DNA from: an uncultured virus (IMG/VR IMGVR_UViG_3300029889_000001)
Taxonomy: Duplodnaviria; Heunggongvirae; Uroviricota; Caudoviricetes
DNA length: 64,000 nt
Reading direction: 5' to 3' (one strand)
Virus record (IMG/VR): IMGVR_UViG_3300029889_000001
Location: 1 to 64,000 of that record
Under the pieces are notes generated by a model. That model was not told where the DNA came from and made no database searches. It saw nothing but the letters and a program-made list of their open reading frames with translations. The position numbers and the translations under genes are program-made. This document shows, piece by piece, positions 50,148-64,000 of this stretch (the stretch's first letter is position 1; every line of letters begins with the position of its first letter).

Positions 50148-50180
50148 AAAGGGGGCCGAATCTCTCCGGTTCCCCCTTCC
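50146..50180. terminator. Hairpin at the convergence of the plus and minus blocks
   Basis: AAAAAGGGGG...CCCCCTT stem with adjacent A tract. Confidence 0.5.
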
Positions 50181-50197
50181 CTCCACTTGATAGGAAA

Positions 50198-50980: not shown

Positions 50981-51001
50981 GCTTGTTTCTCCTCTCCCCG
51001 G

Positions 51002-51451
51002 TTACTCCCAAACGATTAGTTCATCTGGTACGTTAAAGAATCCTTGCCGTCCTGTCACCGCTGGCCGTTTGAGCGCAGGAATCAATCGAACATTTTCCAG
51101 TTTGAATGCATACCTGTCCTTGCCGTCGTCTCCTTTGTCTCGGAAGTCTCCCCAAAACTCACAGTCCCCTATCCTGCCCCTCAGCTTGCCTGTAGGAACG
51201 CAATCAACTAGATCGACTACACAGAGTACCTTTCCGTAGTCCAGAGCGTACAGAGGAAAATCGATCTGCTTAAATCTCCTACCCACTTCCTGATAATAGT
51301 CGAGAAGATAGTCTTTGTAATTGAAAAGTTTCTTTGCCGCGTGGATCGCCAGAGGACCACGATAGTCAGTTTTCCAGCCTCTCGTTTCGTAAGGCTTCAA
51401 CTTCAATCCTATCGCTTGAGCGTGGGGTTGCCAGAGAGATAATGCTTTCAC
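51002..51451 (-). CDS. ASCH-domain protein
   Basis: KALSLWQP.A..I....K.YETR.W...YRGPLAIHA; G.QGFF. Confidence 0.85.
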   Translation of the reverse strand: MKALSLWQPHAQAIGLKLKPYETRGWKTDYRGPLAIHAAKKLFNYKDYLLDYYQEVGRRFKQIDFPLYALDYGKVLCVVDLVDCVPTGKLRGRIGDCEFWGDFRDKGDDGKDRYAFKLENVRLIPALKRPAVTGRQGFFNVPDELIVWE

Positions 51452-51711
51452 TCGGTATCTCCATCCAACTCCGCCGCTAGTCTGCGGTCCTCTTCTTCCT
51501 CTTCCGGCGTTATATCGTGCCGACAGGCTTGACATAACTCAGCGTCTTCATAGTAGCCTGAATTGCACATATTACATATCCTGCGGTCGCAACCTACACA
51601 GATATTGTCGGCTATTTCGTTTCCACACAGTTCGCAGGAATCCAACCCTCTGATATAGTCCTTGAATCCTGAGAACCAACCAAAAAACTCACGCTTGAGA
51701 TACTTCCACAT
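51448..51711 (-). CDS. Cys-rich zinc-finger protein
   Basis: Four CxxC pairs. Confidence 0.55.
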   Translation of the reverse strand: MWKYLKREFFGWFSGFKDYIRGLDSCELCGNEIADNICVGCDRRICNMCNSGYYEDAELCQACRHDITPEEEEEDRRLAAELDGDTE

Positions 51712-51722
51712 AATTCCTCTCC

Positions 51723-52211
51723 CTAGAATGGATGATACCCACTCTCAAACAACATACGCGGCGTCTCTGTGCTCTCCAGATTAGTTACGACAATCTCCGC
51801 CCTCTCTGGTATTCCATAGTGCTTTGAGGCTATCAATTGAATGATTTGCGCGTCGTCTGCCCATAACACTCCAGTCATGGCATCTATGCTGCTGCGACAG
51901 ATTTTATCTATATCTGGTTTTACAGAGATGTGCTGGCGCTTCTTAGATATAGATGGAGGCTTTTCAAAGTAGAACTTCATTTCTACTCCTACCGCCACTT
52001 GCTTCTCTGCAAATAAACCAGCGTATCCTGCCTTTGCACGGGCGTCCAGAGCGGCCCATCCTACCTGCTGACGGTAGGGCTTCATCTTTGTGTTGTCGCT
52101 CGTTAGAATGGCTCGTGGCTTCTTGCCATCTTTACCCGGCAAGACGAATCCCTTCATTGAGCCTTGGGGCTGTGGGCGTCCAAGAACGGTAAAGGATATG
52201 CGGTCAGGCAT
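51723..52211 (-). CDS. rusA: RusA-family Holliday junction resolvase
   Basis: G.P.PQGS, KPDIDK..R...DA.TG....DD.QI. Confidence 0.85.
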   Translation of the reverse strand: MPDRISFTVLGRPQPQGSMKGFVLPGKDGKKPRAILTSDNTKMKPYRQQVGWAALDARAKAGYAGLFAEKQVAVGVEMKFYFEKPPSISKKRQHISVKPDIDKICRSSIDAMTGVLWADDAQIIQLIASKHYGIPERAEIVVTNLESTETPRMLFESGYHPF

Positions 52212-52212
52212 G

Positions 52213-52419
52213 TCAGTCCACCACAACTACGTTTGCGGCCTGCGGCTTTCCTTTTGGCCCCTGTTCTATTTCAAATTGGACTTTCTGTCCCTGTTCGAGC
52301 TTCTTGTATCCTTCGCATTGGATGGCACTGAAATGCGTGAACACATCGGCACTTCCGTCGTCAGGCTTCAAAAACCCGAAGCCCTTGCTGTTATTGAACC
52401 AGATTACAACGCCTTTCAT
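52213..52419 (-). CDS. csp: Cold-shock protein (CspA family)
   Basis: WFN.SKGFGF (RNP1), DVFTHFSAI (RNP2), GPKG.PQAANV. Confidence 0.92.
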
Positions 52420-52433
52420 GTCTTTCCTTTCTC

Positions 52434-52919
52434 TTACGGGTTTGCAATCCATTCTCCAAAAAGATCGTTTGGTGGAAACTCAGGATAGTAGAGGGTGTGA
52501 CTTAGCCAAGCCAAGAGGATTTTACCAACTCGCCCGTTGCCATCTACAAATGCGTGTATCCCCTCGAAAGCCTTGTAAAACTCTAGCGGTTCCAGTTCTC
52601 TCTTGTTCTCTGGACACTGGTTAAATAATATATCCAAAAGCCGAGGAACTTCCTGCCATTCTGGAAATCTTTTTATCCCTGTCCTTGTCCGCACATAAAC
52701 CCCGCAGGTTCGCAGTCCTTGCTTGTTCTTTTTCCGTTCAACCAATTTTCCAAGAGCAATCACATCTTTGACCGTCGGTTTCCTGTCTGAAATAGAAGTC
52801 TTCCTAAGCGCGTAGCTCCACGCATCCAGCATCCACCCTACACGCTCTATGCCGTCAAGAGACTCTACATCGTGTCCTTGGCGCGTTACCTCTTCGCGTA
52901 CATAGTCGATGACGTTCAT
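52434..52919 (-). CDS. Fic/Doc-family protein
   Basis: [13 protein letters not shown] motif. Confidence 0.8.
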
Positions 52920-52927
52920 TGGCTCTC

Positions 52928-53302
52928 CTAAAATGGGTACTCACAGTCCTTGCAAACAGAGCTTTCGTCTCCTGTTGGCGTGTTGCAGTGGACACATATT
53001 CCGGGCGTGGATGCTGGAGGCTCCGTACTGATGAGTCCTTTCGCTTTAAGTTTTTCTACCTCTTCATCGGTCCAGAGATGCCTAAACACCGGCTCTTGCG
53101 GAACTGGAGTATTTGCCGTTGGATCGCCGATAGGATGATCGACTTCTTCCCACCAATAACGCCATTCCCTGCGGTTTCCACGTCCATCTGGTACAAATGT
53201 GTAAGATGATTTCTTGACTAATAAACGACCAGATTCGCTGAGGGCGTAAAGAGATTCATTTCCCTCTGCGTCAACAGCGACTGCGATCTGTTTGAAGTTC
53301 AC
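52928..53302 (-). CDS. Hypothetical protein with C-terminal CxxC pair
   Basis: Coupled to the ATPase gene. Confidence 0.5.
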   Translation of the reverse strand: MNFKQIAVAVDAEGNESLYALSESGRLLVKKSSYTFVPDGRGNRREWRYWWEEVDHPIGDPTANTPVPQEPVFRHLWTDEEVEKLKAKGLISTEPPASTPGICVHCNTPTGDESSVCKDCEYPF

Positions 53303-55203
53303 TTCAACTCCTCCACTGTTCCATTCTCAACGAAGAACCACTTCGTACCTTCCGCTCTCTTTTCCTTTGGAGGCAAAGTCTTATCCAAACTAAAACCGAT
53401 AAGGATAGCCTGATCCAACTGACCACGCTTAATCAAGTCTAGGACAGAACCGTACAAGAAGGGACGAATATCCTCACCAAGCTCCTGCATTTCGTCAATG
53501 ACTACCAACCTGATTCCTGCGGCGATAGATACAGCGCACTGGAAAGCCGCCTTGAAGATATGTTCCTCCGCGCCTGAGATTTCCTTGACCGGGCCAACGT
53601 ATCCGCGTGCGGTTTTAACCTCAAAGCGAAGGTCTTCCGACAAAGAGGATTCGTACCCAAAGGCGCTCATAACCTCACAGAGCTTCGATTCAAAACCACC
53701 GATATATTCCTCAATCAAGGTTTTCTTCACGCCGTCTTTGTCGAAATACTTGACTAGGGAATCCAGCGTTGCCGCTTTCTTTTGCAGCTTCGTCAACTGC
53801 TCTGTCAGTCGTGTCCTTTCCGCCGCTCTCTCCTCAGCCGCAATGACAGGACGTAGCTGCTCGTTAACCTTATCTTCCTCAGCCTGTAGGGTAGCCAGAG
53901 GGTCGTTGAACGGGAGCGTGGCGTTGACTGCCTCTGGTAGTGCCTCCAGTTCGGCCTTGGTTGCCTTACCCGCCTTGACCGTCTCTGTCAAAGACGCTTC
54001 AAGTGTGATCTTTTCCTTGACCGCCGCTTCATGCTTTCTGAGTGATTCCTTTGCTGCTCCGATGTCTCCTATCGCCTCGATCTGTTTGTCTACATATTGA
54101 ATCTCTCGATCTGAATCGGCAACCTCTTTTTGAAGATCGCTAATCATGGCTTCTAGTTTGGTAGCGTCTATGTCCTGTTCGCACATAGGGCACTTGGCTT
54201 GATCGCCTAATAATCCTTTGAGTTTTTCTATCTGCTCATTGGATACTTGGATACCACCAAGCCAACTAGCGTGATTTTTGTTGAGTTCGGCTAATTCTTG
54301 AGCCTTTGCAGCGGTCGCAGTAAATCCTTTTACCTGTTCCGCGCTGAGGATTTCCGTCTCTAGCTGCTCTAGTCTCGCCTTTCCCTTACCTAGCTCCGCT
54401 CTCAGACCCTCGATCTTGGTCTGTAATTTGCCGCGCTTGACCTCGATATTGTTAGCCGTTGCAACCGCTGTATCCCGCTCCAGTTGCAGGTTGTGGCGCT
54501 TTGCTTTAATCTCAGTCAACTTGGTTTGGAGAGATTCTGAGTCTACTCCTCTCGGCGTAGGTAAGGCGTCAGGAATTACGAAGTCCTTTACCTGTCGATT
54601 GGTCGTTTCACGCTCCTTGTGGAGCAACTTATACGCACCTGTAATCACAGTGAAAGGCTCTGCGTCGAAGTCAACCTTTCCTTCGCCTAACATCTCCTCC
54701 ACGGCATCCGTCTTGTCCTTTGGAAAGTCGTAGTGCGGCGGAAGAACCAGCTTGGCTAATAGGTCTGTCTGAGCCTTTTCATCTAGACGTGAGAAGTAGT
54801 CTGTCGCCGTGGCAATCAACATCGCTGCTTTCCTGTCGGCAAGGAAGTTCTTGAATCCATTCACAATTTTGCTATTATCGGGATCATCCAAGCACTCAGT
54901 ATTCACGGTGCGACCGCTCGAATTAGTATTGAGCGTTACAATATTTCGCAACAGATGTGTGCCCTGAATCTCCGCTGTGATTATTGCCTTGCTCTCGCCT
55001 TGCCGAATCTTCTTTTGGAATCCTTTACCATCACTGGAAAGGGATACAGTTGTCTGCGCAAGATTCATCGACAAAGCTTCCGCGAAACTCGTCTTGCCGC
55101 TCATGTTCTTACCGCGAAGGATTACGAAAGAGGCGTCTCCGCAGTCGAGCGTGGAGTTTTCATGAATCCTATAGTCCTTGAGTGTCAGTTTCTTCAGACG
55201 CAT
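53299..55203 (-). CDS. Rad50/SbcC-like ABC ATPase
   Basis: GKNMSGKT Walker A, long coiled coils with CPMC zinc hook, ISGAE signature, VVIDE Walker B. Confidence 0.85.
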   Translation of the reverse strand: MRLKKLTLKDYRIHENSTLDCGDASFVILRGKNMSGKTSFAEALSMNLAQTTVSLSSDGKGFQKKIRQGESKAIITAEIQGTHLLRNIVTLNTNSSGRTVNTECLDDPDNSKIVNGFKNFLADRKAAMLIATATDYFSRLDEKAQTDLLAKLVLPPHYDFPKDKTDAVEEMLGEGKVDFDAEPFTVITGAYKLLHKERETTNRQVKDFVIPDALPTPRGVDSESLQTKLTEIKAKRHNLQLERDTAVATANNIEVKRGKLQTKIEGLRAELGKGKARLEQLETEILSAEQVKGFTATAAKAQELAELNKNHASWLGGIQVSNEQIEKLKGLLGDQAKCPMCEQDIDATKLEAMISDLQKEVADSDREIQYVDKQIEAIGDIGAAKESLRKHEAAVKEKITLEASLTETVKAGKATKAELEALPEAVNATLPFNDPLATLQAEEDKVNEQLRPVIAAEERAAERTRLTEQLTKLQKKAATLDSLVKYFDKDGVKKTLIEEYIGGFESKLCEVMSAFGYESSLSEDLRFEVKTARGYVGPVKEISGAEEHIFKAAFQCAVSIAAGIRLVVIDEMQELGEDIRPFLYGSVLDLIKRGQLDQAILIGFSLDKTLPPKEKRAEGTKWFFVENGTVEELK

Positions 55204-55355
55204 CTTCTCTCTCCCATCCGCAAGTGTTACAGGTTAAAACCACGTCCATGCACGATCCGCACGGCGCACTCTTAAAGCATGTGCAGTTCTCCGATGGAGG
55301 ATAGATCATCCTTCCTTCGCATCCATCTATAGGGCACGGATCGCCTTCGTCTACC

Positions 55356-56741
55356 TCAGAACTCATCTTCATCTCCCCATCCTTCCCCTTCGCTGTCCTC
55401 TTCCTGCTCCTCGTCAGGAACCGCGTCCAAAGGCTTGCTCACCTTGAGCGTTGCCTTCGTTACCTTGTCTGCGGTGTCCTGACAGGCTTGGTCAAGAAAC
55501 GCCCTCTTTTTTGTTCCCAAATAGCTATTGAGCTTGGTTGAAGAGATAACCAGTTTTCCCATCCATGCCGTATCGCCTGTATTACCGAAAGCGTAATCTT
55601 CTACGATCAAATCCGCAATCGGCATTATCGGCCTGACTCTTCCTTCCTTACATTTTGGGCATAGTCCATTTTCAGGAACATAGTCGAATTGTTTTCCGCA
55701 GTCACACCTAGTTGCGATACTTTCTCCTGTTGTCCTGAAAAGAGGATACACGCTAGATTCACTCTCGACGGGTCCGAAGACGTAAGCCTTCCCGTTGTAG
55801 TCTTTGAGAACTACTCTCTTTCCTGTCCCGTTAACATAATCGCGCAGCGTCTTGCTGTTGACCTTTGAAAAAGCACTGTACCAAAGCAGATAGCGGAGCC
55901 TATCAACTGGCTCTAGTTGCATTTGAGGGTTCCATTGGCTAATGGGGCACTCACGGTTGGAAAGAAGAGGGCAGTAGACACATTGAGCGCCTGAGATTGC
56001 TTCAATTTCCTTGCCGCCGTCGAAACTCACATGGATGGTTTTCTGGCGCTCTCTCGCAGCCTTCGCTTCCTCAATCAACTTAGGAACGTCTTGGCGCGTG
56101 TATTCCACCGTCCTAGTCATATTTTTGTAACGGACGAAAGTCAAACGGAATACAACAGTCTCCACCCATGTAAAGTGTTGATAAATAAAAAGCGCGTACA
56201 TCTTAGCCTGCATTGTTTCGCTTGGCTCAAAAGCGCGAGCGTGTGATTTGAAGTCATCCACTAGAATCTTGTTTTCTGTGCGGAAGACGTACACGCCGTC
56301 AAGTGTTCCCTGATAGCATGGAGGCAACCCACTGTCTCCGCTTATCCCTTCTACCTCCGTTGCCACATCGGTAGGCTGAAAATGCTCATCAAGAGCCATG
56401 CCTAGTTCTGTAGCAAATAAATGTTCGTGGTCAACTACAAATCCATCGCGGAGTCCTGATAGAATCCTAGCCGCTTGTGGCCCTGCGCCATGACTGAAAG
56501 ATTCAAAGGCATCCAAGTCCATCCCTACCGATTTACGGGCGCAGTGGGAGAGATAAAGCGCCATTGTCTTGTGGATTTCAGTTCCACGCGCCGCCTCAAG
56601 TCCTCCCGGTGGTTTATTTCCTTTAATGAATACTTCCGTATAGAAACGAGGACAGGCCATCGTTTCCTGAGTGGACTGCCTGAGTGGTGGGATAGGACTC
56701 TTCTGAATTTGAACCAACTCGGTAGATTTTCTCTTAGGCAT
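55356..56741 (-). CDS. PD-(D/E)XK (RecB/Cas4-like) exonuclease
   Basis: CP...RGT.IH, E, G.LD, DDFKS, Q...YA, C.YC.....C. Confidence 0.8.
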   Translation of the reverse strand: MPKRKSTELVQIQKSPIPPLRQSTQETMACPRFYTEVFIKGNKPPGGLEAARGTEIHKTMALYLSHCARKSVGMDLDAFESFSHGAGPQAARILSGLRDGFVVDHEHLFATELGMALDEHFQPTDVATEVEGISGDSGLPPCYQGTLDGVYVFRTENKILVDDFKSHARAFEPSETMQAKMYALFIYQHFTWVETVVFRLTFVRYKNMTRTVEYTRQDVPKLIEEAKAARERQKTIHVSFDGGKEIEAISGAQCVYCPLLSNRECPISQWNPQMQLEPVDRLRYLLWYSAFSKVNSKTLRDYVNGTGKRVVLKDYNGKAYVFGPVESESSVYPLFRTTGESIATRCDCGKQFDYVPENGLCPKCKEGRVRPIMPIADLIVEDYAFGNTGDTAWMGKLVISSTKLNSYLGTKKRAFLDQACQDTADKVTKATLKVSKPLDAVPDEEQEEDSEGEGWGDEDEF

Positions 56742-57291
56742 TCAGTCCTTTCTGTGTGCAGTCAAAAACCATTAACCTGTCGATGTAACTCTTTGCCGCG
56801 TCGTATCCGTGAGCATGAATTACATGGTCGTACTGCGTTGTCTCGTATCCCGGCCACGCTTCTTCCTTCGGAAAGATTTCAGATGCATCAGCTTTTATTT
56901 CGGAATCCGTCCACTCAAGATGGATGACACTCTTTCTCCATCCAATCTTAATCCTTCCCTTCGGAGTTGCCACGATAAACCAAGGGTAAAAAGCGCAGCA
57001 TCCACGACTACAATAGCCGTTAGGAATCTCTTCCATATATAGAGCGTGACGACCAAAACATTCAAGAATCTTCGCCTTGTCGCAAGCGGCTTTCTCGTGC
57101 GTCTTTGGGTTGGCTCCTGTCTCTCCCTTCAGGAGAGCGTCGTCAATCGAATCTCGCGCTCTATCAATCGCAAACTTTTCATCTTCGGTAAACTCCCGCT
57201 CTATGCCTTGTATCTGAATACGAATCGCATAGCCGCCCATGTGCTGCACACTAGTTACGTTTTTGAATTCCTGCTCGACTGCTATAGTCAC
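56734..57291 (-). CDS. Conserved-looking phage hypothetical protein
   Basis: EIPNGY...PWF.V.T..G.IKIGWRK.VI...W...IHA. Confidence 0.6.
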   Translation of the reverse strand: MTIAVEQEFKNVTSVQHMGGYAIRIQIQGIEREFTEDEKFAIDRARDSIDDALLKGETGANPKTHEKAACDKAKILECFGRHALYMEEIPNGYCSRGCCAFYPWFIVATPKGRIKIGWRKSVIHLEWTDSEIKADASEIFPKEEAWPGYETTQYDHVIHAHGYDAAKSYIDRLMVFDCTQKGLNA

Positions 57292-57706
57292 GCAACCCTC
57301 CTAATCTTCTTTATCTCGCCCCATGAAATCGTAGCCAGTCTCCGGTCCTTGTGCGACACGGAAAACGCATCCACACGCTCACGTATGTTTCCATAGGTGC
57401 GTGACGTGCAGAGCAATTCCTCTCCAGCCCATAGGCTCTTGAGCGCAAGAGTTAGTATATCCTTCGGCTTACGAAATGTACGCCGCTTCTTTACGAATAC
57501 CATGCTGGTACCTCCTAAAATAGTCCTAATCTGGCAAACTCACGTCGGGTAAATTCCGCCGTCTTCGGGTCCAACTTCGCCATCAACTTGTGACGGTTGT
57601 TCGATTGCTCTATCTTTTCGTTAAGGATACGTGCCTCACCTATCCTTCTCAAGTCTTCAACCGTTTTGATGGCACCGCTCTTGCCTTTATTCTTTCCTCT
57701 CTTCAT
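57288..57706 (-). other. Two small basic hypothetical ORFs (57288-57503, 57515-57706)
   Basis: GGAGG RBS, coupled. Confidence 0.5.
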
Positions 57707-58824
57707 GCCGTTACCTCCATATTGATTGTCCTGTGCGCCGCTGTCGGGCCTCTCCCTTGCATAACAACAGGAGCGAGTTCACTGACCCGATCAATAAACA
57801 CTCGTTCCTGCCATCCTAAGCGGGGTAGGTAGTCGAGATGACTCAAAGCCAATACATCCACCCCGCCAACAATGCTTAGTGCTTGTTTAGCCAAAGTGAA
57901 GTCAAAGCGTCCTACGCGGAACTTACCTTGGAATCCGTCGTTTCCATTGTGCGGCTCAGGAAGATCAAGAGTGTTATCTTCGGTCGGAAATGGTCCTACT
58001 CCGTGACGAGTGTAGTACGTTCTCAGGCATCCAATCCTCATTCTGTCCGTACAACCGATCTCGTCAAGCAGCGTATCGGCGTTCTCAAAGGTAGTGTTCG
58101 TCCATGTGTTGTGCGGAGCAGTACCGTGCTTTTCGTCCAGCATTACTCCCTGCGCTCCCTCGAAAACCATGCACCTCGATTCGCCAATGATTGAACTGTC
58201 CTCCGGTACTAAACGAACAAATGCCTTCCAGCGATCATACCCAACCTTTATATCTTCAATATTTAGATCAGAGGTAGCCTCTACTCCCATTTCTTTTTGA
58301 ACAAGGTTTTTCTGAAATTTCAATTTCTCTCGCAGGTCCACCCAATCGTAAATATCCTCCGCGCAGAGCACATTATCGCGCCCGTATTTCAATTCAAACT
58401 CTCGCGCCACCCCAACTCCCATCCCACAACTTCCATGCCGTCCCGTACCACGCGCCGTCTCTCTAAGCCGGTTGAGACGCTTGTGAAAAGGTGTAATAAC
58501 AACACATCTGGCGGATATGGTCAATCTTCTCCACCAGCCAGGAGTTTTCTTGGCTAACTCATCCGCCTCGTTCAACATGGTAATTGGATCGATAAGCATA
58601 AAACGTGATAAATGCGTCCTAACTTGATCGTTCGCCATCATTCCAGAGCCGAACTGGGAAAAGGTATGATGTACGCCTTCGGGGGTAATCACGTTATGAG
58701 CGCATTGCGATCCACCCCCATGCCGCACGATTAAGTCCACTGGAAGGCTACGGCAGAGTGCATCCACCGTAGCCCCTTTGGACTCGTCGCCGAAACCTAA
58801 CCCGGCTACAGAGATTGCTCTCAC
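57703..58824 (-). CDS. Divergent adenylosuccinate-synthetase (PurA)-like ligase
   Basis: GFGDESKG, R.GGG.Q.AH, FEGAQG..LD, TR.G.GPFPTE, LSHLD, GP; IMP and Asp loops non-canonical. Confidence 0.85.
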   Translation of the reverse strand: MRAISVAGLGFGDESKGATVDALCRSLPVDLIVRHGGGSQCAHNVITPEGVHHTFSQFGSGMMANDQVRTHLSRFMLIDPITMLNEADELAKKTPGWWRRLTISARCVVITPFHKRLNRLRETARGTGRHGSCGMGVGVAREFELKYGRDNVLCAEDIYDWVDLREKLKFQKNLVQKEMGVEATSDLNIEDIKVGYDRWKAFVRLVPEDSSIIGESRCMVFEGAQGVMLDEKHGTAPHNTWTNTTFENADTLLDEIGCTDRMRIGCLRTYYTRHGVGPFPTEDNTLDLPEPHNGNDGFQGKFRVGRFDFTLAKQALSIVGGVDVLALSHLDYLPRLGWQERVFIDRVSELAPVVMQGRGPTAAHRTINMEVTA

Positions 58825-59765
58825 AGCCTTGCCGCCTTCCCCGCTCCAGACGTAGCCAGTGAGTCAGTGGTAACATGCTTCATTGACTTGACTAGAGCCT
58901 TGGCTTCGCTATCTCCTACGCCGATAGCCACAAGGTCAGTGACCACCGACGCCGGAGTTGCCTTGGACTCATACAGGCCAATAGTCGAAGCAATCAACTC
59001 GCAAAGCAGATTTGGATGCTGGCTGGTTAGCACAGATTCCTCGCCAAACAGTCTGACGTACTGCTCACGAGCATGACGGTATCCACCATCCGGCCAGATC
59101 ACGAAGATATTGAAGTTCCTGCGGGCCTCTTCGATGATCTCCGCGATAGGAATATCTTTTTCGATGGTATCGCCGAAGATCGCCTTCACTTCCTTCGCTT
59201 GAACATGGGTGAAGATTGGCTCATCGGCATACAGGAACATATAGCCCTTTTTCCCACGTTTCTCGACAGAATCAAGCACCATCTTCCGCGCTGCCGCGTA
59301 GAGCAGCAGATCGTAAGACTCACCATCATTGCCGCCTCCAAGACAGACCAGATAGATGTTGCGAATGTGATCGTCTACGCGGTTGTCACTCTCGAAGTCT
59401 GAAAGCTGAACACAGTTGGACCCCGCATAGTTGTAGTCATCATTCGCCGCAACCGCAACTTGCGGATCAGTCAGGTACTTGTTGAGCAGTTCCATCAGGT
59501 TAGGCAAACGCTTCTGCGCGTCCACTGCTCGCTCATAGTTCGAGCCTGTCACGTCAAAGCAAACTAGTACAGGGTTGGATTGTGGATGCTCTGTCGAGTC
59601 ACGCGCTTCGAGTTTTCCGAAAGGCTTGCTATTGATCCTCAGCGGGTCAAGGTTCGTGTGAACTGACGTTGCTGTTTTGGTATAGGCAAAATCGGCTACG
59701 CCGGTTGCCTTACGAGTGGTTGCTGACGAATGATATGCACCGCTATCCCAGGCTCCCCCGCCCAT
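58821..59765 (-). CDS. VWA-like protein with MGGG.W N-terminus
   Basis: FDVTGS MIDAS variant, FESD, GGGN..ESY, F..ADE. Confidence 0.8.
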   Translation of the reverse strand: MGGGAWDSGAYHSSATTRKATGVADFAYTKTATSVHTNLDPLRINSKPFGKLEARDSTEHPQSNPVLVCFDVTGSNYERAVDAQKRLPNLMELLNKYLTDPQVAVAANDDYNYAGSNCVQLSDFESDNRVDDHIRNIYLVCLGGGNDGESYDLLLYAAARKMVLDSVEKRGKKGYMFLYADEPIFTHVQAKEVKAIFGDTIEKDIPIAEIIEEARRNFNIFVIWPDGGYRHAREQYVRLFGEESVLTSQHPNLLCELIASTIGLYESKATPASVVTDLVAIGVGDSEAKALVKSMKHVTTDSLATSGAGKAARL

Positions 59766-59782
59766 CGTTTGTCTCCTTTTCT

Positions 59783-60832
59783 TTACGGCAAGTTAAATTC
59801 AACCCACTTAGGGGAGCCGTACCCCTTAGCAGCAGCTTGCTTCCAATCCTCAAGAACATCACCGGCTTTCTGGTAACGCTTATCTGGATTTTCATCAAGA
59901 CACTTCGATAGAACTTTTCCTAACTCCGGCAGCCACAAGGTTCCGCACAGATATGTCATTAACCGCGCTGCCATGTAGATGTCGGATGGTGGCCCAATGT
60001 ACTTCTTTGAAAGCAATTCTGGAGCATAGTGATCTTGCCACGCAGGAACCCACGAAGAAAGTCTCGTCCTCTGGGTATAGTCAACACTATAGCACCAATC
60101 CACGAGCCTGATCGAATGTTTTCTTGAGTCTTTTGTTATCGTGTTTCCGTCATTGTCTGGATAAAATAAAACGTGAGGCGGAAGGATGGCTCCATGAATG
60201 ATCTTGAAATGATGAACCCAGGTAAGAAGAGTTAGGATTCTCTTAAACATCCACACTCCAGTCTTCTTCTCTACTGTGTTGTCTCCAAACTTTGCATGAA
60301 CTTCCTGAGCCGTCACGAACCCAGGGAAGCGAGTAATAACATTCGCCTCTCGCTTCCACAGTCCCTCTACCCAAAAGTTGCCTACCAACTCAGGAACACC
60401 GTCTCGGACAGGACCATCAATCTTTGCCAGAATCTTGAGCGCATTGACTTCTGCGCGTAGAAGATCATTGTCGTCGTGAGAGCGAGCAACCTTTACCAGA
60501 ATCTTTCCGCCTTCAACCGTGTAAAGGTCTGCTATGTCTCCTATATGCGGATGAGGCTTGGCTTTGTACTTGCCGATCTCCAGAGGGACACAGTGAGGTA
60601 AAGGTACTCTCTTGCCCCATATTCCTTTCCTCACTCTCTCATCGGCTATTTGCTTGAGTTCGTTGAGTTTTTGAAAAGCCTTCTTTGCGATAGGCTCCGT
60701 AGGATTGTGATCTGGATGGCAAGCACGAGCAAGTTTACGAAAGACTATTGCTGGATCGTCGCCAGAACCAAACACATCCTCTGGGCAGCAGGCTCCGTCT
60801 AGCTTGTCGTAGATGAGTTGTAGTTCGCTCAC
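59783..60832 (-). CDS. J-domain (HPD) fused to a Ser/Thr-kinase-like (pseudokinase) domain
   Basis: FRKLARACHPD.N....AF..L; LVKVAR, helix C Glu, IHGAILPPHV, LVDWCY, YAPE, SDIYM. Confidence 0.8.
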   Translation of the reverse strand: MSELQLIYDKLDGACCPEDVFGSGDDPAIVFRKLARACHPDHNPTEPIAKKAFQKLNELKQIADERVRKGIWGKRVPLPHCVPLEIGKYKAKPHPHIGDIADLYTVEGGKILVKVARSHDDNDLLRAEVNALKILAKIDGPVRDGVPELVGNFWVEGLWKREANVITRFPGFVTAQEVHAKFGDNTVEKKTGVWMFKRILTLLTWVHHFKIIHGAILPPHVLFYPDNDGNTITKDSRKHSIRLVDWCYSVDYTQRTRLSSWVPAWQDHYAPELLSKKYIGPPSDIYMAARLMTYLCGTLWLPELGKVLSKCLDENPDKRYQKAGDVLEDWKQAAAKGYGSPKWVEFNLP

Positions 60833-61131
60833 TCAGAAGTCTCCGTTCCCTCTACCTTCGGTTCCTCAATCAAAGGCTCAATCATGTCGAGTCCTACCAG
60901 AATAGCCTTGAGCGTGGCACGAAGACTCTCAACCTCACTCTTACGTTGGTTATTGCGGTGAATCTGATCGAAGGCTTTGACGATATTGAAGGTCGTTCCG
61001 GTTTGAATCTTACGGTCGCTTGAGTAGTACCCTTGCTGTGAACCTACTGTTCGACCTGCTAGGTAGTCAATCTCTCGAAAAGTCGCCTCAACGAGAAAAT
61101 TCCCGTCTCCTATAGTTCCGATGATTTTCAT
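60829..61131 (-). CDS. Hypothetical protein
   Basis: GGGAGAGGG RBS; GTGA-coupled to the J-kinase gene. Confidence 0.55.
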   Translation of the reverse strand: MKIIGTIGDGNFLVEATFREIDYLAGRTVGSQQGYYSSDRKIQTGTTFNIVKAFDQIHRNNQRKSEVESLRATLKAILVGLDMIEPLIEEPKVEGTETSE

Positions 61132-61254
61132 TGTCCCTCTCCCAATGTGTTGATGCGCGGCGCTCGGATGCTGAGACTTCGCCCGGACGCGACCCGATGT
61201 GCCTTAGAGGGACACGCCGCGCACTCTCGACAACTCCCCTAGCTGCCGAAAGGT

Positions 61255-62436
61255 CTAAAATTCCAAGTTCAACGTCTTCGGTCGCCCTGGTTCCGCTTGC
61301 TGTGCCGGTTTCTCGTCCTGCGCGGGCTTGGTTTCTTGTGTTTCCTGTTGCGGCTCAGGCTTCTCCTCTGGCGCTGAGTCGATCTTCTTTGGCCGTCCAC
61401 GACCGCGCTTCACTTCCGTTTCCTGCGGCGTCTCGGTCTTTGCTTGCTCAGTCTTGACCTCTGCTTGCGATGCTTGCTGTGTTGCTTGCTCCGCTGGCTT
61501 CTCAGTTGCCTTCGTTTCCGTCTTGGCTACTGTCTGTCCTGTCGGCGCTAGGCGTCCACGTAGGTACTCAAGCAACTCCTTCGCCCGTCCCATGTATGAG
61601 TTCTTGAGAAGACGCTTCTCTGTCTCGTTCTTGCCGAGTTGAGTAAACAGAGATTCAATCTCCTTGTCAAATGGAGAACCGAATACCTCTTCAATCGTCC
61701 TGACGCCCTTCTTAATCTCCTCACAGAGAGCTTTCAGGGTGACAAGGTGGTCGATCTCCAGTTCCTTTGGCGAAGTGACTCCTACCGCGTTCATGATCTG
61801 CCACTCGCTCACGCCCAGCTTCGTCAGGTACTCCATAGCCGCGTCGATGCGCTGTGAATGGCTTACAGCTTGTCCTACGGCGGTCAGCTTCGCTTGTTGG
61901 TAGGCTGGGTCCCAAAGAGCCATCGGAACGCCGCCTTTGAGAACTGCATCGCGGTAAGCAATGCTCAACGCAGCCTTTCCGGTCGTTAGGATCATATCGG
62001 CATTGAACTTCCGGCCTTCTTTGTCTGTGATCCGGCGAGGAACCTCTTTGGCGTTCTTGTTATTAAACTCGTAGTCAAGAAACACGCCTTGCGCGGTAAT
62101 AGTGTCGTCTGTGCTTCCAAAAATCCTTGTTGCTGTGGACGTGTTTCTCCATGTTGGAGCCACAATCTCAGCAAAGCGAACTCCTGGTCCGACAATCTGC
62201 TTTCCTGCGCGGGGAAGCGTATAAAACATGCTCAGTGCAACAGGCTGAGAATGGGTTGCGTAGGACATGAGTTGCTTTTGAAAAGTGGTAATGTTTCTCC
62301 TGTTCGCTGGAAGGTTTGCTGTGGCAACCATGGCCGCATATTCCGACTGTGTGATAATCGCTAATGTCGAAGGAGATGAGTCAATAATCTCCAAATTTGA
62401 TTCATTCTCTGGTGGAAGGTATTCCTCGTTCGCCAT
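61255..62436 (-). CDS. Putative single-strand annealing / recombination protein
   Basis: Y.LPR.GK.I.GP..R.AE motif; disordered tail with KRGRGRPKK ending LEF; function inferred from context. Confidence 0.5.
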   Translation of the reverse strand: MANEEYLPPENESNLEIIDSSPSTLAIITQSEYAAMVATANLPANRRNITTFQKQLMSYATHSQPVALSMFYTLPRAGKQIVGPGVRFAEIVAPTWRNTSTATRIFGSTDDTITAQGVFLDYEFNNKNAKEVPRRITDKEGRKFNADMILTTGKAALSIAYRDAVLKGGVPMALWDPAYQQAKLTAVGQAVSHSQRIDAAMEYLTKLGVSEWQIMNAVGVTSPKELEIDHLVTLKALCEEIKKGVRTIEEVFGSPFDKEIESLFTQLGKNETEKRLLKNSYMGRAKELLEYLRGRLAPTGQTVAKTETKATEKPAEQATQQASQAEVKTEQAKTETPQETEVKRGRGRPKKIDSAPEEKPEPQQETQETKPAQDEKPAQQAEPGRPKTLNLEF

Positions 62437-62481
62437 GCTGCTCCTTTTCCGGTTCTCCCGGTGTGGTTTCAAAATGTTCCA

Positions 62482-63712
62482 CTACTCCTGCTCTAATTGC
62501 CTTAATTTCTCACTTGCGGCCCATCCTCTTGGATTGCCGGGTTTGTCTTCCCGAATAGTCGATGGACCGCCTAAAGGCATATCAATAATCGCCGTTCTCG
62601 TACACCGCTTTCTCCCAAAATATAGGTAAACGGCTACGCTTGCGTCATCATCCATCCCCATAGGCCCAAAGATTTTGAAATCCCAAGGTGCTCTGTCAAA
62701 CTGCTTCATCAGATTGGGATGTTGGAACCTCAAGTGATCTAATAGTGTCATTCTCTTTCTCTCCCGTCGTTTCCTGTTCCTTGGCTGCTGGTACGGTCCC
62801 TTCCCTAGTCAGCGGCGGCTTTAATTCCAAAGTCGATTCCCGATTTGCCACGGTTGTGTCAGGCGTCATCAGGTTGCTCACCGTCTGCATCATGTGTCCT
62901 ATCCCGCATAAATGCTTTCCCTCTTTCATTGCCTTTTGAGGACACTCATCCCAGTGGTACACATGAACGCCAGAGGATTCAGGAAGGACTACATACCAAT
63001 TATTTACCTCTCGGCGCTGGGCTGTGCAACCGGGGAAATCACACGTAGGTGCTGATCCTAATCCCATGCAGTTATTTTACCTCTCCTCGCGCTTTAGCCA
63101 ACGCTTTTATTGCCATGGCTACGCCGCAAGGATTTCCAAGGTTATGCGCTTGACAGTTTCCATGGTGATCGTACTGGCATGGTTCGTCGTCAATTAACTG
63201 CTCAAGAGCAACGTACATATCCGGTCCTGCGGCGATAAGGTGAGCGTTGGCTTCATCGTTGCCTTGAGATGTGATAGCGATAAAATGGAACCTCTCGCCA
63301 GCGACAGATATTTCCCATTGGCAACCGTTGTGATCTTTTGCCACCCACGGCCCTTGTGTGAACTTAGGTTCGCTCATGCCGTCACCGCCTCCCAAAATCC
63401 CTCACCGTAGACCACAGCGCCGTTCACTGAATGGAATACCAGCATATCCCCGCCGTCGCAGACTTTCACTTCGAGTCCTTTGGCTATATAAGCATCAGAA
63501 CGCCGTTTAGCTTCGGACAGTGTGATTTCCTCGTCAGGATATTTCATCGGTCCTTTGCGAAACCACATGCCTCCGCTGTGATAACCGTCACGTTGGTAAC
63601 AGTAGATTTTCCACGGTCCTTCACCGATCTCCGCGTACTGGAGTTCGGTAAGCGTGTGAACTTCCGCTAATCCTGCCGCCTCTTGGCTCTTTGCCCACTC
63701 TCCGAAATTCAT
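62482..63712 (-). other. Small hypothetical ORFs (62482-62751, 62696-63067, 63072-63377, 63374-63712)
   Basis: Coupled ORFs; 63072-63377 has the common phage T.GPW...ANA.LIAA.P...AL..ARG pattern. Confidence 0.55.
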
Positions 63713-63726
63713 GCCGTCAACCTCCG

Positions 63727-63999
63727 TCACCACGAAATCGTGAATACCTGTTTGCCTTTGTTTGCTTCCAAGAACGGGAGTACGTCTTTTTCCGCTGCTA
63801 CGCCGTAATGCTCATGCTCCTTTGCTGCTGCATAAATCGCACGAACCTTGTCCAGAAAATCATCGTCGATGACTGGCAAATCCTCACCGATTAGTTCGTT
63901 GATTTTCCCTACTACGTCAGGAATAAATGATTCATTGTCTCCTGTTAGTTTTGCCTTGAGCCAGCTAACCTCTCCTACCCAAACGTTAGGAGTATCAGT
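63727..63999 (-). CDS. Hypothetical protein, partial (starts beyond the window)
   Basis: Open frame ...TPNVWVGEVSWLKA...KGKQVFTISW*. Confidence 0.55.
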   Translation of the reverse strand, partial: TDTPNVWVGEVSWLKAKLTGDNESFIPDVVGKINELIGEDLPVIDDDFLDKVRAIYAAAKEHEHYGVAAEKDVLPFLEANKGKQVFTISW

Positions 64000-64000
64000 G

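What the first reader, a model, noticed from the sequence alone, without database searches (positions are those of the whole stretch)
57703..60832. Phage-borne J-domain/pseudokinase + VWA + rewired PurA-like ligase cassette
Seen: three tightly linked genes (17-bp gap, then a GTGA overlap) inserted between the putative annealing protein and the PD-(D/E)XK nuclease/Rad50 genes. They encode an HPD J-domain fused to a kinase fold, a MIDAS-type VWA protein starting MGGGAW, and a PurA-like enzyme. Established: J-domains recruit DnaK through HPD, VWA domains are metal-dependent adaptors, and PurA is a GTP-driven C-N ligase. No purB or other purine gene is in the window. I recall similar triads in bacterial, especially actinobacterial, chromosomes without an assigned function, but cannot verify that here. 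Inference: this is not purine supply but a chaperone-assisted nucleotide- or protein-modification (conflict) system captured by a phage. One testable idea is that the VWA protein's Gly-rich N-terminus, or a bound client, is the amine acceptor.
Basis: partly seen in the sequence, partly recalled or inferred. Interest (0 to 1): 0.88.

Follow-up and report, generated by a model that had tools for sequence, protein, structure and literature searches.

The report
Phage J-pseudokinase, vWA, PurA-like module
This phage carries a tightly linked three-gene set (a chaperone-recruiting dead kinase, a metal-site vWA protein and a re-tooled relative of the purine enzyme PurA) that recurs in hundreds of large phages and bacteria, usually beside NAD/ADP-ribose genes, and whose function nobody has described.

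Summary
Minus-strand genes K (59783-60832; J-domain plus kinase fold lacking the catalytic Asp), V (58821-59765; vWA fold with a DxTGS metal site, starts MGGGAW) and P (57703-58824; PurA-like) are joined by a 17-bp gap and a GTGA overlap.

P is neither PurA nor PurZ. It keeps the phosphotransfer residues and the guanine-specific Asp, but the aspartate pocket is rebuilt across the family.

The set is a conserved module:
- K-V-P or V-P in 80 of 84 IMG/VR loci and 76 of 80 bacterial loci, always co-directional.
- The same order in about 200 Bixzunavirus mycobacteriophages.

Bacterial copies lie next to an NrtR-like (Nudix-wHTH) regulator gene in 71 of 80 loci. Some jumbo phages embed the module among NAMPT and NMNAT genes. 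I therefore read it as an NAD/ADP-ribose-linked system.

Two correlations found here:
- V begins Met-Gly in 153 of 159 distinct copies.
- V's C-terminal Arg-Leu tail tracks the presence of K.

The chemistry remains unknown, and my literature searches found no description. This scan had flagged the same module at least 15 times on other DNA.

The parts
59783..60832 (-). K: 349-aa J-domain (about aa 1-70) fused to a protein-kinase-fold domain without the catalytic Asp (pseudokinase)
   Evidence: ORF. Pfam DnaJ 3e-06 and Pkinase 6.2e-05. phrog_3043 1.7e-31. AF2 pLDDT 94.1. Foldseek best hit is the DnaJ-PKA chimera 4wb7, then Aurora/PknB kinases.
60710..60718 (-). HPD tripeptide of the J-domain (aa 39-41)
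   Evidence: Translation. HPD is aligned in 47-48 of 61 viral K and 66 of 73 bacterial K; it is invariant in alignment A4.
60172..60196 (-). Catalytic-loop equivalent H213-G-A215-I-L-P218-P-H220. The canonical HRD Asp is Ala and the loop Asn is His.
   Evidence: Ala in 49 of 61 viral K, Asp in only 2 of 61, His220 in 48 of 61. Ala in 71 of 73 bacterial K.
59773..59778 (-). AAGGAG ribosome-binding site inside the 17-bp K-V spacer
   Evidence: Read from the sequence.
58821..59765 (-). V: 314-aa vWA-fold protein with an N-terminal helical extension and a disordered C-terminal tail
   Evidence: ORF. phrog_2971 5.5e-49. AF2 pLDDT 94.2, pTM 0.91. Foldseek matches vWA and integrin I-like domains. The family has 1225 50%-identity clusters at E<=0.001.
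59748..59765 (-). Conserved N-terminus of V, M-G-G-G-A-W. Met1 and Gly2 are invariant in the family.
   Evidence: M1 and G2 are invariant in 59 of 59 aligned sequences. A start-codon-plus-Gly motif is found in 73 of 79 distinct viral V and 80 of 80 bacterial V.
59541..59555 (-). MIDAS-type motif D71-V-T73-G74-S75 of V
   Evidence: D71 and S75 are invariant; T73 and G74 are at least 90% conserved.
58824..58829 (-). C-terminal Arg-Leu of V, at the end of a low-confidence tail. Its presence co-varies with K.
   Evidence: pLDDT is below 50 at residues 302-306 and 312-314. Tail versus K: viral 46/14 with K against 1/18 without K; bacterial 54/20 against 1/5. Fisher p = 2.5e-08 and 0.010, not corrected for kinship.
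57703..58824 (-). P: 373-aa PurA-fold enzyme (a short-C-terminus form) with a rebuilt nucleophile pocket. Its GTG start overlaps V's stop (GTGA).
   Evidence: ORF. PF00709 4.1e-51. phrog_1211 1.8e-60. PDB sequence matches are canonical PurA only, best E = 1.7e-26. NCBIfam scores are below the PurA and PurZ cut-offs. Site analysis. Overlap read.
58774..58791 (-). P-loop G12-D13-E-S-K16-G17 of P. Asp13 is retained; PurZ has Ser here.
   Evidence: G12, D13, K16 and G17 are kept in 79 of 79 family members. Ser at this position in 147 of 147 phage PurZ (PMC12884076, section 24).

Best explanation
The cassette is a phage copy of a widespread, undescribed module that I call K-V-P.

Shown:
- P has the adenylosuccinate-synthetase fold. 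It keeps the residues that in PurA transfer the gamma-phosphate of GTP onto the purine O6 (Asp13, Lys16, His41, Gln224; guanine-specific Asp333).
- The aspartate pocket is rebuilt throughout the family, and part of the IMP 5'-phosphate pocket is altered.
- V is a vWA domain with a metal site and is P's near-obligate genomic partner.
- K is a J-domain fused to a kinase fold that lacks the catalytic Asp.

Inferred:
- P still activates an oxygen by GTP-dependent phosphorylation, then joins the activated carbon to a nucleophile other than aspartate.
- K docks on V's disordered C-terminal Arg-Leu tail and brings the host Hsp70 (DnaK) to the V-P pair. In this reading K plus DnaK would play the part that MoxR ATPases play for other vWA adaptors.
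- The module belongs to the NAD+/ADP-ribose economy. In bacteria it would be switched by an NrtR-like ADP-ribose-type sensor. In phages it would help keep or reshape the NAD/adenine-nucleotide pool during infection.
- It does not make Z-DNA and does not supply AMP by the standard route.

The substrate and product are not known.

P active site, 79 family sequences aligned to E. coli PurA:
- Kept: D13 79/79, K16 79/79, H41 79/79, Q224 78/79, D333 78/79.
- Changed: T300 to W/F/Y 72/79; T301 to Q 72/79; R303 deleted 79/79; R305 to F/L/M/I/W 76/79; V273 to H 79/79; N38 to Q 78/79; T129 to C 65/79. R143 is not conserved.
- P is below the curated PurA and PurZ cut-offs: 137 vs 402 bits and 30 vs 300 bits.

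Module conservation:
- 84 viral loci: KVP 61, VP 19, KV 3, V 1. All are co-directional.
- 80 bacterial loci: KVP 73, VP 3, KV 1, V 3.
- About 200 Bixzunavirus genomes carry the genes in the same order.
- V-P pairs occur in Vibrio and Rhizobium jumbo phages.
- No other conserved neighbour was found in phages; the best shared family is in 9 of 84 loci.

NAD/ADP-ribose link:
- NrtR-like gene adjacent and on the same strand in 71 of 80 bacterial and 7 of 84 viral loci.
- NAMPT within 7 kb in 10 of 84 viral loci. It lies between V and P in L015, L016 and L042, and directly upstream of V in five others.
- NMNAT-like gene directly after K in three loci.
- NADAR beside V in L014 and in Vibrio phage pv27.
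- P is fused to a Nudix domain in Kitasatospora. A solo Nudix gene follows P in L036.

K-V coupling:
- V's C-terminal [RK][LVIMF] tail is present in 46 of 60 viral V with K and in 1 of 19 without K.

Paralogue status:
- Four of five bacterial carriers checked have a canonical PurA (559-618 bits) plus P (192-207 bits).
Against: - No biochemical datum exists, and the nucleophile and the phosphoryl acceptor are unknown.
- This phage and its complete 136-kb relative have no NrtR-like/Nudix gene and no NAMPT. The NAD link is therefore borrowed from other carriers.
- NAD-related neighbours occur in a minority of phage loci, and most neighbours have no Pfam family.
- NrtR-family regulators also control non-NAD pathways such as pentose use (PMC2330246, passages read), and the effector of this NrtR-like branch is untested.
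- The retained D13/H41/Q224 set argues for a purine-type substrate. That is not obviously an NAD-pathway intermediate.
- The loci analysed are the 80 most similar of 482 viral and of at least 546 bacterial matches, and many are related. Counts are therefore not independent events.
- The functional roles assigned to E. coli PurA residues are recalled from the literature. They do not come from a call, except for Asp13.
Confidence: 0.5

Rival explanations
1. Protein N-terminal purinylation. After removal of Met1, the free amine of V's Gly2 replaces aspartate as the nucleophile. P would then link a purine nucleotide through C6 to the N-terminus of V. K and DnaK would load or recycle the modified V.
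For: - Met-Gly at V's start is invariant in 59 of 59 aligned sequences. The motif is found in 73 of 79 viral and 80 of 80 bacterial V, including loci without K.
- The carboxylate-binding residues of the Asp pocket are replaced by aromatic or hydrophobic residues. That would suit a peptide amine without side-chain carboxylates.
- V and P co-occur almost always, and their genes often overlap.
Against: - No direct test was possible.
- V's first 10 residues are modelled with pLDDT 89, which suggests a packed rather than a free arm.
- A stoichiometric self-modification does not explain the NAD-gene context.
- 5 of 79 distinct viral V lack the motif yet still sit next to P.
Confidence: 0.15
2. One-enzyme NAD+ rebuilding, a functional analogue of NARP1. 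P would phosphorylate the 1''-hydroxyl of ADP-ribose with GTP, and nicotinamide bound in the rebuilt aromatic pocket would displace the phosphate to give NAD+. V and K would act as activase and chaperone.
For: - The operon sits under an NrtR-like, ADP-ribose-type sensor in 71 of 80 bacterial loci.
- In jumbo phages it is embedded in NAMPT/NMNAT operons.
- Nudix domains are fused to P or adjacent to it.
- The pocket is rebuilt with Trp/Phe, His and Gln, and the 5'-phosphate site is altered.
- Phage NAD+ reconstitution pathways are established: NARP1 and NARP2 (search listing) and NARP3 (abstract).
Against: - The chemistry is my own proposal and has no precedent in the PurA family.
- Retention of the purine N1/O6 residues D13 and Q224 is not explained.
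- The window's phage has no other NAD gene.
Confidence: 0.1
3. A defence, abortive-infection or superinfection-exclusion module. V and K would sense an invader or stress, and P would be the effector that depletes or corrupts a nucleotide pool. Phages would carry it against rivals.
For: - vWA and kinase-like proteins recur in conflict systems.
- K has weak PADLOC hits to PD-T4-6 and MkoA kinases.
- Presence within genera is patchy but common: 45 of 61 and 54 of 63 species genomes.
- Iyer et al. 2022 describe Nudix-HTH regulators and vWA chaperones in ADP-ribose-related immune neighbourhoods (PMC9503650, passages read).
Against: - V and P match no PADLOC model.
- The flanks examined in 12 bacterial loci are ordinary chromosomal genes, without integrases or other defence genes.
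- The module is kept in an 0.8-Mb Saccharibacteria genome.
- It is embedded in NAD salvage operons in phages.
Confidence: 0.1
4. Ordinary adenylosuccinate synthetase: a phage auxiliary metabolic gene that boosts AMP synthesis. V and K would be unrelated neighbours.
For: - PF00709 4.1e-51.
- The catalytic residues and the GTP site are kept.
- Annotated as a PurA-like adenylosuccinate synthetase in GenBank phage records.
Against: - The Asp-binding positions are lost in 72-79 of 79 members.
- P scores 137 bits against the 402-bit PurA cut-off.
- No purB-type gene is in the phage.
- Four of five bacterial carriers checked already have a canonical PurA.
- Linkage to V is strict.
Confidence: 0.04
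5. PurZ: synthesis of 2-aminoadenine (Z) for a Z-genome, as the PHROG and RefSeq label '2-aminooxy adenylosuccinate synthetase' implies.
For: - Best PHROG is phrog_1211, which carries that label.
- The same label appears on RefSeq Bixzunavirus records.
Against: - Asp13 is kept in 79 of 79 members, whereas all 147 phage PurZ have Ser there (PMC12884076, section 24).
- P scores 30 bits against the 300-bit PurZ cut-off.
- PHROG annotation of the whole 73-kb record shows no DatZ, MazZ or DpoZ.
- PurZ uses aspartate, and P's aspartate pocket is gone.
Confidence: 0.01

Closest known systems
Adenylosuccinate synthetase PurA (EC 6.3.4.4; PF00709; E. coli structures such as 1ADE)
   Same: - Same fold (PF00709 4.1e-51), and the best PDB sequence matches are PurA.
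- Keeps Asp13, Lys16, His41 and Gln224.
- Keeps the guanine-binding Asp333 and the S/G-x-G-P element.
   Different: - Aspartate pocket replaced: T300 to aromatic, T301 to Q, R303 deleted, R305 to hydrophobic, V273 to invariant His.
- IMP phosphate contacts altered: N38 to Q, T129 to C, R143 variable.
- Below the curated equivalog cut-off.
- Occurs as a second copy beside a canonical PurA in four of five bacteria checked.
- Always paired with a vWA gene.
PurZ / PurZ0 (2-aminoadenylosuccinate synthetase of Z-genome phages)
   Same: A phage-borne PurA paralogue with a shortened C-terminal region. It falls in the same PHROG (phrog_1211).
   Different: - PurZ has Ser at position 13 in 147 of 147 phage sequences (PMC12884076, section 24), whereas P keeps Asp.
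- P scores 30 against the 300-bit PurZ model cut-off.
- No DatZ, MazZ or DpoZ partners were found.
- PurZ partners are nucleotide hydrolases and a polymerase, not a vWA protein and a pseudokinase.
MoxR AAA+ / vWA enzyme-activase pairs (CbbQ-CbbO, NorQ-NorD and others; recalled, apart from the NorQ-NorD structure 9qh6 listed)
   Same: A vWA/MIDAS adaptor genetically tied to an enzyme and to an ATP-driven remodelling component. The NorD vWA domain is among the structural matches of V (rank 21).
   Different: - No MoxR ATPase lies next to this V. The energy source would be host DnaK, recruited through K's J-domain (inference).
- The window does hold a separate MoxR-like gene and a DUF2201 vWA gene about 22 kb away.
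Kinase-plus-vWA gene sets (TerY-P triad; YeaG/PrkA-YeaH-YcgB), recalled from general knowledge
   Same: Co-transcribed kinase-fold and vWA proteins of unclear stress-related function.
   Different: - Those kinases keep their catalytic residues and have no J-domain.
- Their third partner is a PP2C phosphatase or SpoVR, not a PurA-like enzyme.
- None of this was tested here.
Phage NAD+ reconstitution pathways: NARP1 (Adps + Namat) and NARP2 (Nampt + Nmnat), seen in the search listing; NARP3 (PnuC + NadR-like), abstract of PMC13464706 read
   Same: - Phage-borne, nucleotide-level and NAD-linked context.
- The module is interleaved with NAMPT and NMNAT-like genes in several jumbo phages.
   Different: - No component is shared.
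- No NAD-forming activity has been shown for K-V-P.
- The window's phage has no NAMPT.

Membership tests
PurA (adenylosuccinate synthetase) | PF00709 fold | tested here: met
   4.1e-51, 174.5 bits against a cut-off of 27.
PurA (adenylosuccinate synthetase) | Reaches the curated NCBIfam equivalog score | tested here: not met
   NF002223: 137.4 bits against a cut-off of 402. TIGR00184: 127 against 395.55.
PurA (adenylosuccinate synthetase) | Catalytic Asp13, Lys16, His41, Gln224 and guanine-specific Asp333 (roles recalled from the literature; Asp13 is called essential in PMC12884076) | tested here: met
   Kept in the window protein and in 78-79 of 79 family members.
PurA (adenylosuccinate synthetase) | Aspartate-binding Thr300, Thr301, Arg303, Arg305 (roles recalled) | tested here: not met
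   The window protein has F, Q, a deletion and F at these positions. In the family: aromatic 72/79, Q 72/79, gap 79/79, F/L/M/I/W 76/79.
PurA (adenylosuccinate synthetase) | Makes adenylosuccinate from IMP, Asp and GTP | not testable with these tools
   Needs an enzyme assay or purA complementation.
PurZ | Ser in place of Asp13 | tested here: not met
   Asp in 79 of 79. Ser in 147 of 147 phage PurZ (PMC12884076, section 24).
PurZ | Reaches the NCBIfam NF038379 cut-off | tested here: not met
   30.1 bits against a cut-off of 300.
PurZ | Accompanied by DatZ, MazZ or DpoZ | tested here: not met
   None appears among the PHROG matches of 73 ORFs of the window and 12 ORFs of the rest of the record. 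The record is estimated to be 72% complete.
J-domain (DnaJ/Hsp40) | HPD motif between helices II and III, and a J-domain fold | tested here: met
   HPD at aa 39-41. The model has helices 27-38 and 47-68. The best structural match is a DnaJ-kinase chimera. Pfam DnaJ scores 27.7 bits, 0.1 under its cut-off.
J-domain (DnaJ/Hsp40) | Stimulates the Hsp70 ATPase | not testable with these tools
   Needs a DnaK ATPase assay.
Active Hanks-type protein kinase | Kinase fold with the beta3 Lys and alphaC Glu | tested here: met
   Fold. K114 in 54 of 61 and E128 in 55 of 61 viral K. Both in 73 of 73 bacterial K.
Active Hanks-type protein kinase | Catalytic Asp of HRD and Asn of the catalytic loop | tested here: not met
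   The loop reads H-G-A...P-x-H. Ala in 49 of 61, Asp in 2 of 61, His in place of Asn in 48 of 61 viral K. Ala in 71 of 73 bacterial K.
vWA domain with MIDAS | vWA (Rossmann-like) fold | tested here: met
   AF2 pLDDT 94.2. All of the listed top Foldseek PDB matches are vWA, integrin I-like or Ku domains.
vWA domain with MIDAS | DxSxS-type metal motif | tested here: met
   D71-V-T-G-S75, with D71 and S75 invariant. Metal binding itself was not tested.
vWA domain with MIDAS | Recognised by Pfam vWA models | tested here: not met
   No Pfam family at E<=0.01. The PDB sequence profile search gave nothing meaningful.
NrtR-linked K-V-P module (as seen repeatedly in this scan) | The three families are co-linear on one strand | tested here: met
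   Window. 61 of 84 viral and 73 of 80 bacterial loci carry all three.
NrtR-linked K-V-P module (as seen repeatedly in this scan) | Adjacent NrtR-like (Nudix + wHTH) gene | tested here: not met
   No NUDIX match in the window's record or in its complete relative. Present in 71 of 80 bacterial and 7 of 84 viral loci.
Known anti-phage defence systems (PADLOC-DB v2) | Component proteins match the models of a system | tested here: not met
   V and P: no match. K: weak kinase-fold hits only, best E = 8.1e-06.
NARP1/NARP2/NARP3 | Contains the pathway's enzymes | tested here: not met
   No NAMPT in the window's record or its relative. Adps, Namat, PnuC and NadR were not searched for specifically, and none appears in the PHROG annotation.

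The most novel reading that the evidence does not exclude
P catalyses a new kind of protein modification. Using GTP, it activates C6 of a hypoxanthine nucleotide (IMP, or an ADP-ribose- or NAD-like dinucleotide with that base) and joins it to the alpha-amine of V's invariant N-terminal glycine. This would make an N6-protein-linked adenine nucleotide. K would grip V's Arg-Leu tail and recruit DnaK to load, present or recycle the conjugate. The whole cycle would read or buffer the cell's NAD/ADP-ribose state, and phages would exploit it during infection.
Probability: 0.12. Interest if true: 0.95.

Novelty: new variant of a known kind. Interest (0 to 1): 0.8.

Why it matters
The module is widespread and undescribed.
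- V relatives occur in at least 546 bacterial species genomes and 482 IMG/VR contigs.
- About 200 cultured Bixzunavirus mycobacteriophages of the laboratory host M. smegmatis carry the set.
- My searches found no paper on what it does.

The databases label P as PurA or PurZ, and both labels fail tested defining features. Z-genome surveys that rely on PF00709 or phrog_1211 will therefore miscount these phages.

A PurA-fold enzyme with a new nucleophile would be the third chemistry in this family, after PurA and PurZ. Its tie to an ADP-ribose-type sensor and to NAMPT/NMNAT genes places it in the NAD-centred phage-host contest, where new pathways are still being found; NARP3 was published in 2026.

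The J-domain pseudokinase plus vWA pair may also be a new way to couple Hsp70 to an enzyme. All of this can be tested directly with Bxz1-type phages, Streptomyces or Micromonospora.

Tried and rejected
- Complex prediction of P (alignment A2) with GTP, Mg and V (alignment A1): scores 0.00, 0.39, 0.00. The tool's verdict was 'no answer', so I draw no conclusion.
- Megablast of window 50000-64000 against the phage collection: no match. The phage itself is not among the deposited phages.
- Profile of V against PDB sequences: only two chance-level hits to nitrophorin, E about 0.08.
- ESM Atlas look-up of V: only 'hypothetical protein' clusters. vWA-named clusters scored 0.82-0.83, below a useful level.
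- PADLOC: no system.
- Search for a shared exact inverted repeat (a candidate NrtR operator) upstream of 55 bacterial NrtR-like genes: the best arm occurred in only 6 loci, which is inconclusive, and I did not pursue it.
- All-against-all BLAST clustering of bacterial flanks timed out. I replaced it with Pfam annotation of 65 flank ORFs from 12 loci and a purpose-built NrtR HMM.
- The flanking small ORFs (100 aa upstream; 63, 71 and 185 aa downstream) are shared only with the same phage (L007) or one close relative (L008). I reject them as module parts.
- Domain fusions gave no substrate clue beyond the P-Nudix fusion and an intein in V.
- Supplementary files of Rodionov 2008 could not be read. 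The identity of its unknown NrtR-regulated genes nrtX and nrtY is therefore unchecked.
- I did not open the supplements of PMC12884076. Its Supplementary Fig. S8 may show the non-PurA, non-PurZ phage clade.

Full report
**What is in the window.** The window is bases 1-64000 of a 73,458-bp IMG/VR virus record, estimated to be 72% complete. A 136-kb IMG/VR contig, estimated to be complete, carries the same three proteins at 100% identity.

Three ORFs lie head to tail on the minus strand:
- K, 59783-60832, 349 aa.
- V, 58821-59765, 314 aa.
- P, 57703-58824, 373 aa.

I read the junctions directly. K's stop is followed by 17 bp containing AAGGAG, then V's ATG. V's TGA and P's GTG share GTGA. The upstream 100-aa ORF overlaps K's start by GTGA, and the downstream 63-aa ORF overlaps P's stop by ATGA. 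The cassette therefore sits inside a long, translationally coupled leftward gene string. That string also holds an exonuclease (phrog_69) and an SbcC/Rad50-like gene (phrog_77). The small flanking ORFs recur only in the same phage or one close relative and are not part of the module.

**What the three proteins are.**
- K scores just under Pfam's cut-offs for DnaJ (27.7 against 27.8 bits) and Pkinase (23 against 31.7). It matches phrog_3043 'kinase' at 1.7e-31. Its AF2 model (pLDDT 94.1) has as best PDB match the human DnaJ-PKA chimera 4wb7, which covers both domains, followed by Aurora and PknB kinases.
- In 61 viral K sequences the HRD aspartate is Ala in 49 and Asp in 2. The catalytic-loop Asn is His in 48. 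The beta3 Lys (54) and alphaC Glu (55) are mostly kept, and HPD is aligned in 47-48. In 73 bacterial K the figures are Ala 71, Lys 73, Glu 73 and HPD 66. 'J-domain pseudokinase' is therefore a family trait.
- V has no Pfam family. Its model is confident (pLDDT 94.2, pTM 0.91). Its PDB matches are vWA, integrin I-like and Ku domains, with 177 at E<=0.001. It has a D71-x-T-G-S75 metal motif.
- P is PF00709 at 4.1e-51. Its only sequence matches in the PDB are canonical PurA enzymes.

**P is neither PurA nor PurZ.** I aligned 79 family members to E. coli PurA taken from the K-12 record.
- Kept: D13, K16 and H41 in 79 of 79; Q224 and D333 in 78 of 79.
- Changed in the aspartate pocket: T300 is aromatic in 72, T301 is Gln in 72, R303 is deleted in all 79, R305 is F/L/M/I/W in 76, and V273 is an invariant His.
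- Changed in the IMP-phosphate site: N38 is Gln in 78, T129 is Cys in 65, and R143 is not conserved.

The roles of these residues are recalled from the PurA structural literature. Only the essential role of Asp13 comes from a paper I read (PMC12884076, section 24). That section also states that all 147 phage PurZ sequences carry Ser at position 13, whereas P keeps Asp.

NCBIfam gives 137 bits against a cut-off of 402 for PurA, and 30 bits against 300 for PurZ. PHROG annotation of the whole record shows no DatZ, MazZ or DpoZ. The record and its complete relative have no Lyase_1 (purB-type) gene. In four bacterial carriers a canonical PurA (559-618 bits) coexists with P (192-207 bits). A fifth, an 0.8-Mb Saccharibacteria genome, has only the module's P.

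**The module is conserved.**
- Among deposited phages, P, V and K each match the same 201 Mycobacterium phage records, all Bixzunavirus in the two records I opened. In phage Colt the genes are directly adjacent in the order K-V-P.
- V-P pairs without a detectable K occur in Vibrio phage pv27 and Rhizobium phage RHph_TM30.
- In IMG/VR, 482 contigs encode a V relative. I examined 84 loci: the best 80, plus 4, one of which is the same phage. Of these, 61 have K, V and P, 19 have V and P, 3 have K and V, and 1 has V alone. All genes are on one strand. The usual order is K-V-P, with V-P-K in 8 loci and P-V in 2.
- Three of the four loci without P end within about 1 kb after V. The fourth, L069, has 2.9 kb after V.
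They are mostly Actinomycetota, with Planctomycetota and Saccharibacteria as well. Of the best 80 loci, 73 have K-V-P, 3 have V-P, 1 has K-V and 3 have V alone. Three of the four without P are short contigs or contig ends; L093 is a real exception.
- V is found in 45 of 61 sampled species genomes of the genus that holds L109, and in 54 of 63 of the genus that holds L094.

These loci are the most similar hits and include close relatives, so the counts are not independent events. ORFs were called as longest open frames, not by a gene finder.

**Link to NAD and ADP-ribose.** I found this link, before I read the scan's earlier notes.
- Pfam annotation of flanks in 12 bacterial loci showed a Nudix plus NrtR winged-helix gene directly beside the triad in several phyla.
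- An HMM built from four of these finds such a gene in 71 of 80 bacterial loci. In nearly all it is on the same strand and abuts the triad, either just before K or just after P. It also finds one in 7 of 84 viral loci.
- The Nudix box looks intact in the actinomycete and phage versions and degenerate in the others.
- The best NCBIfam match is the ADP-ribose-responsive repressor model, at 141 bits against a cut-off of 400. It is a relative, not an equivalog.
- In phages, NAMPT lies within 7 kb in 10 of 84 loci. It sits between V and P in L015, L016 and L042, and directly upstream of V in L041, L048, L056, L057 and L063. An NMNAT-like gene follows K in L056, L057 and L063.
- NADAR genes flank V in L014 and in Vibrio phage pv27.
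- Rhizobium phage TM30 has a phosphoribosyltransferase-like gene and an NMN adenylyltransferase/Nudix gene 3-4 kb upstream.
- P is fused to a C-terminal Nudix domain in a Kitasatospora. A solo Nudix gene follows P in L036.
- Against this, most phage neighbours have no Pfam family. The window's own phage and its complete relative have neither NAMPT nor any Nudix gene.

**Two correlations inside the module.**
- V begins Met-Gly in 59 of 59 aligned family members. A start codon followed by Gly, a small residue and an aromatic is present in 73 of 79 distinct viral V and 80 of 80 bacterial V, whether or not K is present.
- V ends in a low-confidence tail that often terminates in Arg-Leu. A terminal [RK][LVIMF] is present in 46 of 60 viral V from loci with K, but in 1 of 19 from loci without K. 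In bacteria the figures are 54 of 74 against 1 of 6. Fisher p is 2.5e-08 and 0.010, not corrected for relatedness. The K-less loci fall in several V clades, including the nearest relatives of the window's own clade.

I infer that the tail is K's docking or DnaK-client element. Separately, one V homologue is interrupted by a Hint (intein) module near the conserved D181-E182 motif.

**Most likely mechanism.**
- Shown: the folds, the motifs, the genetic linkage and the context.
- Inferred: P uses GTP to phosphorylate an oxygen of a purine-type substrate, as PurA does, but passes the activated carbon to a nucleophile other than aspartate. V is its adaptor, or its substrate. K binds V's tail and recruits DnaK. 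In bacteria the operon answers to an ADP-ribose-type signal. In phages it supports or rewires the NAD/adenine-nucleotide pool.

I put 0.5 on this general reading. Sharper variants are N-terminal purinylation of V (0.15) and one-step rebuilding of NAD+ from ADP-ribose and nicotinamide (0.10). Other rivals are a defence or exclusion module (0.10), ordinary PurA (0.04) and PurZ (0.01).

**Literature.**
- Full-text searches found no paper describing the set: 'adenylosuccinate synthetase' with Bxz1; PurZ / PurA-like / phage; adenylosuccinate synthetase with vWA and phage; PurA-like or PurA-homolog terms; NrtR with adenylosuccinate; NARP terms with adenylosuccinate or von Willebrand; J-domain / pseudokinase / von Willebrand / operon.
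- PMC12884076 (section 24 read) sorts 481 phage PF00709 homologues into PurA-like and PurZ groups. In the passages I read it does not discuss the remainder.
- Rodionov et al. 2008 (PMC2330246, passages) list unknown NrtR-regulated genes nrtX and nrtY but never mention purA. Its supplements could not be read.
- Iyer et al. 2022 (PMC9503650, passages) describe Nudix-HTH regulators and vWA chaperones in ADP-ribose systems but contain no mention of adenylosuccinate or PurA.
- NARP3 (PMC13464706, abstract) is PnuC plus a NadR-like enzyme.
- A 2026 preprint on kinase-like domains (passage) concerns a different vWA context.

**Earlier findings of this scan.** The same module had been reported at least 15 times in at least 14 other genomes, with the same general reading: an NrtR-linked, uncharacterised module whose Asp pocket is lost. 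My counts were made independently. The items not in the summaries I saw are NAMPT placed between V and P, the P-Nudix fusion, the near-universal Met-Gly start, and the co-variation of V's tail with K.

Noticed in passing
window 33257-36445 (+): A second, separate vWA system in the same phage. It comprises a MoxR-like AAA_5 ATPase (33257-34291), a 298-aa protein with no family (34315-35211), and a DUF2201_N metallopeptidase fused to a DUF2201 vWA-like domain (35189-36445). PHROGs labels the last one 'HNH endonuclease'.
   Followed up: partly
window 52434-52919 (-): A 161-aa Fic/DOC-family protein (Pfam 2.3e-07) sits between a cold-shock protein gene (52213-52452) and the Rad50-like region, just upstream of a RusA resolvase gene. 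It is a possible AMPylating or host-takeover enzyme.
   Followed up: no
window 61132-61254 (-): A 123-bp G+C-rich non-coding stretch, the only sizeable gap in the gene string. It lies just upstream of the 100-aa ORF that is translationally coupled to K. It may hold the promoter or a structured leader for the cassette. I did not analyse it.
   Followed up: no
window 49124-49861 (+), 40552-41502 (+), 25426-26070 (-), 42682-43506 (+); L003 7472-9196 (+): A serine recombinase (Resolvase + Recombinase), a ParB-like protein and at least three DNA methyltransferase-like genes. These suggest a temperate or plasmid-like lifestyle with heavy DNA methylation.
   Followed up: no
protein P0239 (V homologue, 581 aa); Bixzunavirus records such as CharlieB and Yassified: Some V genes are interrupted. 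P0239 has a Hint (intein) module at residues 173-250. In about 60 mycobacteriophage records the match to V stops at residue 185, with 'HNH endonuclease' annotated under it. Mobile elements seem to target the conserved D181-E182 region of V.
   Followed up: partly
L122 8285-10042 (+) (Kitasatospora sp.): The PurA-like gene is fused in one open frame to a C-terminal NUDIX domain (PF00293 at residues 464-558). This is in addition to the separate NrtR-like gene upstream.
   Followed up: partly
L093 3437-7933 (+) (Gemmataceae): The V homologue lies in a 1498-aa open frame with no K or P in a 14.9-kb locus, and Pfam finds nothing in the frame. It is either a large fusion or an artefact of longest-ORF calling.
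   Followed up: no
RefSeq Bixzunavirus records (for example NC_023733.1 gene 259) and phrog_1211: The PurA-like gene is labelled '2-aminooxy adenylosuccinate synthetase' (PurZ) in RefSeq and PHROGs. It fails the PurZ defining residue and the model cut-off, so this looks like a propagated mis-annotation.
   Followed up: yes
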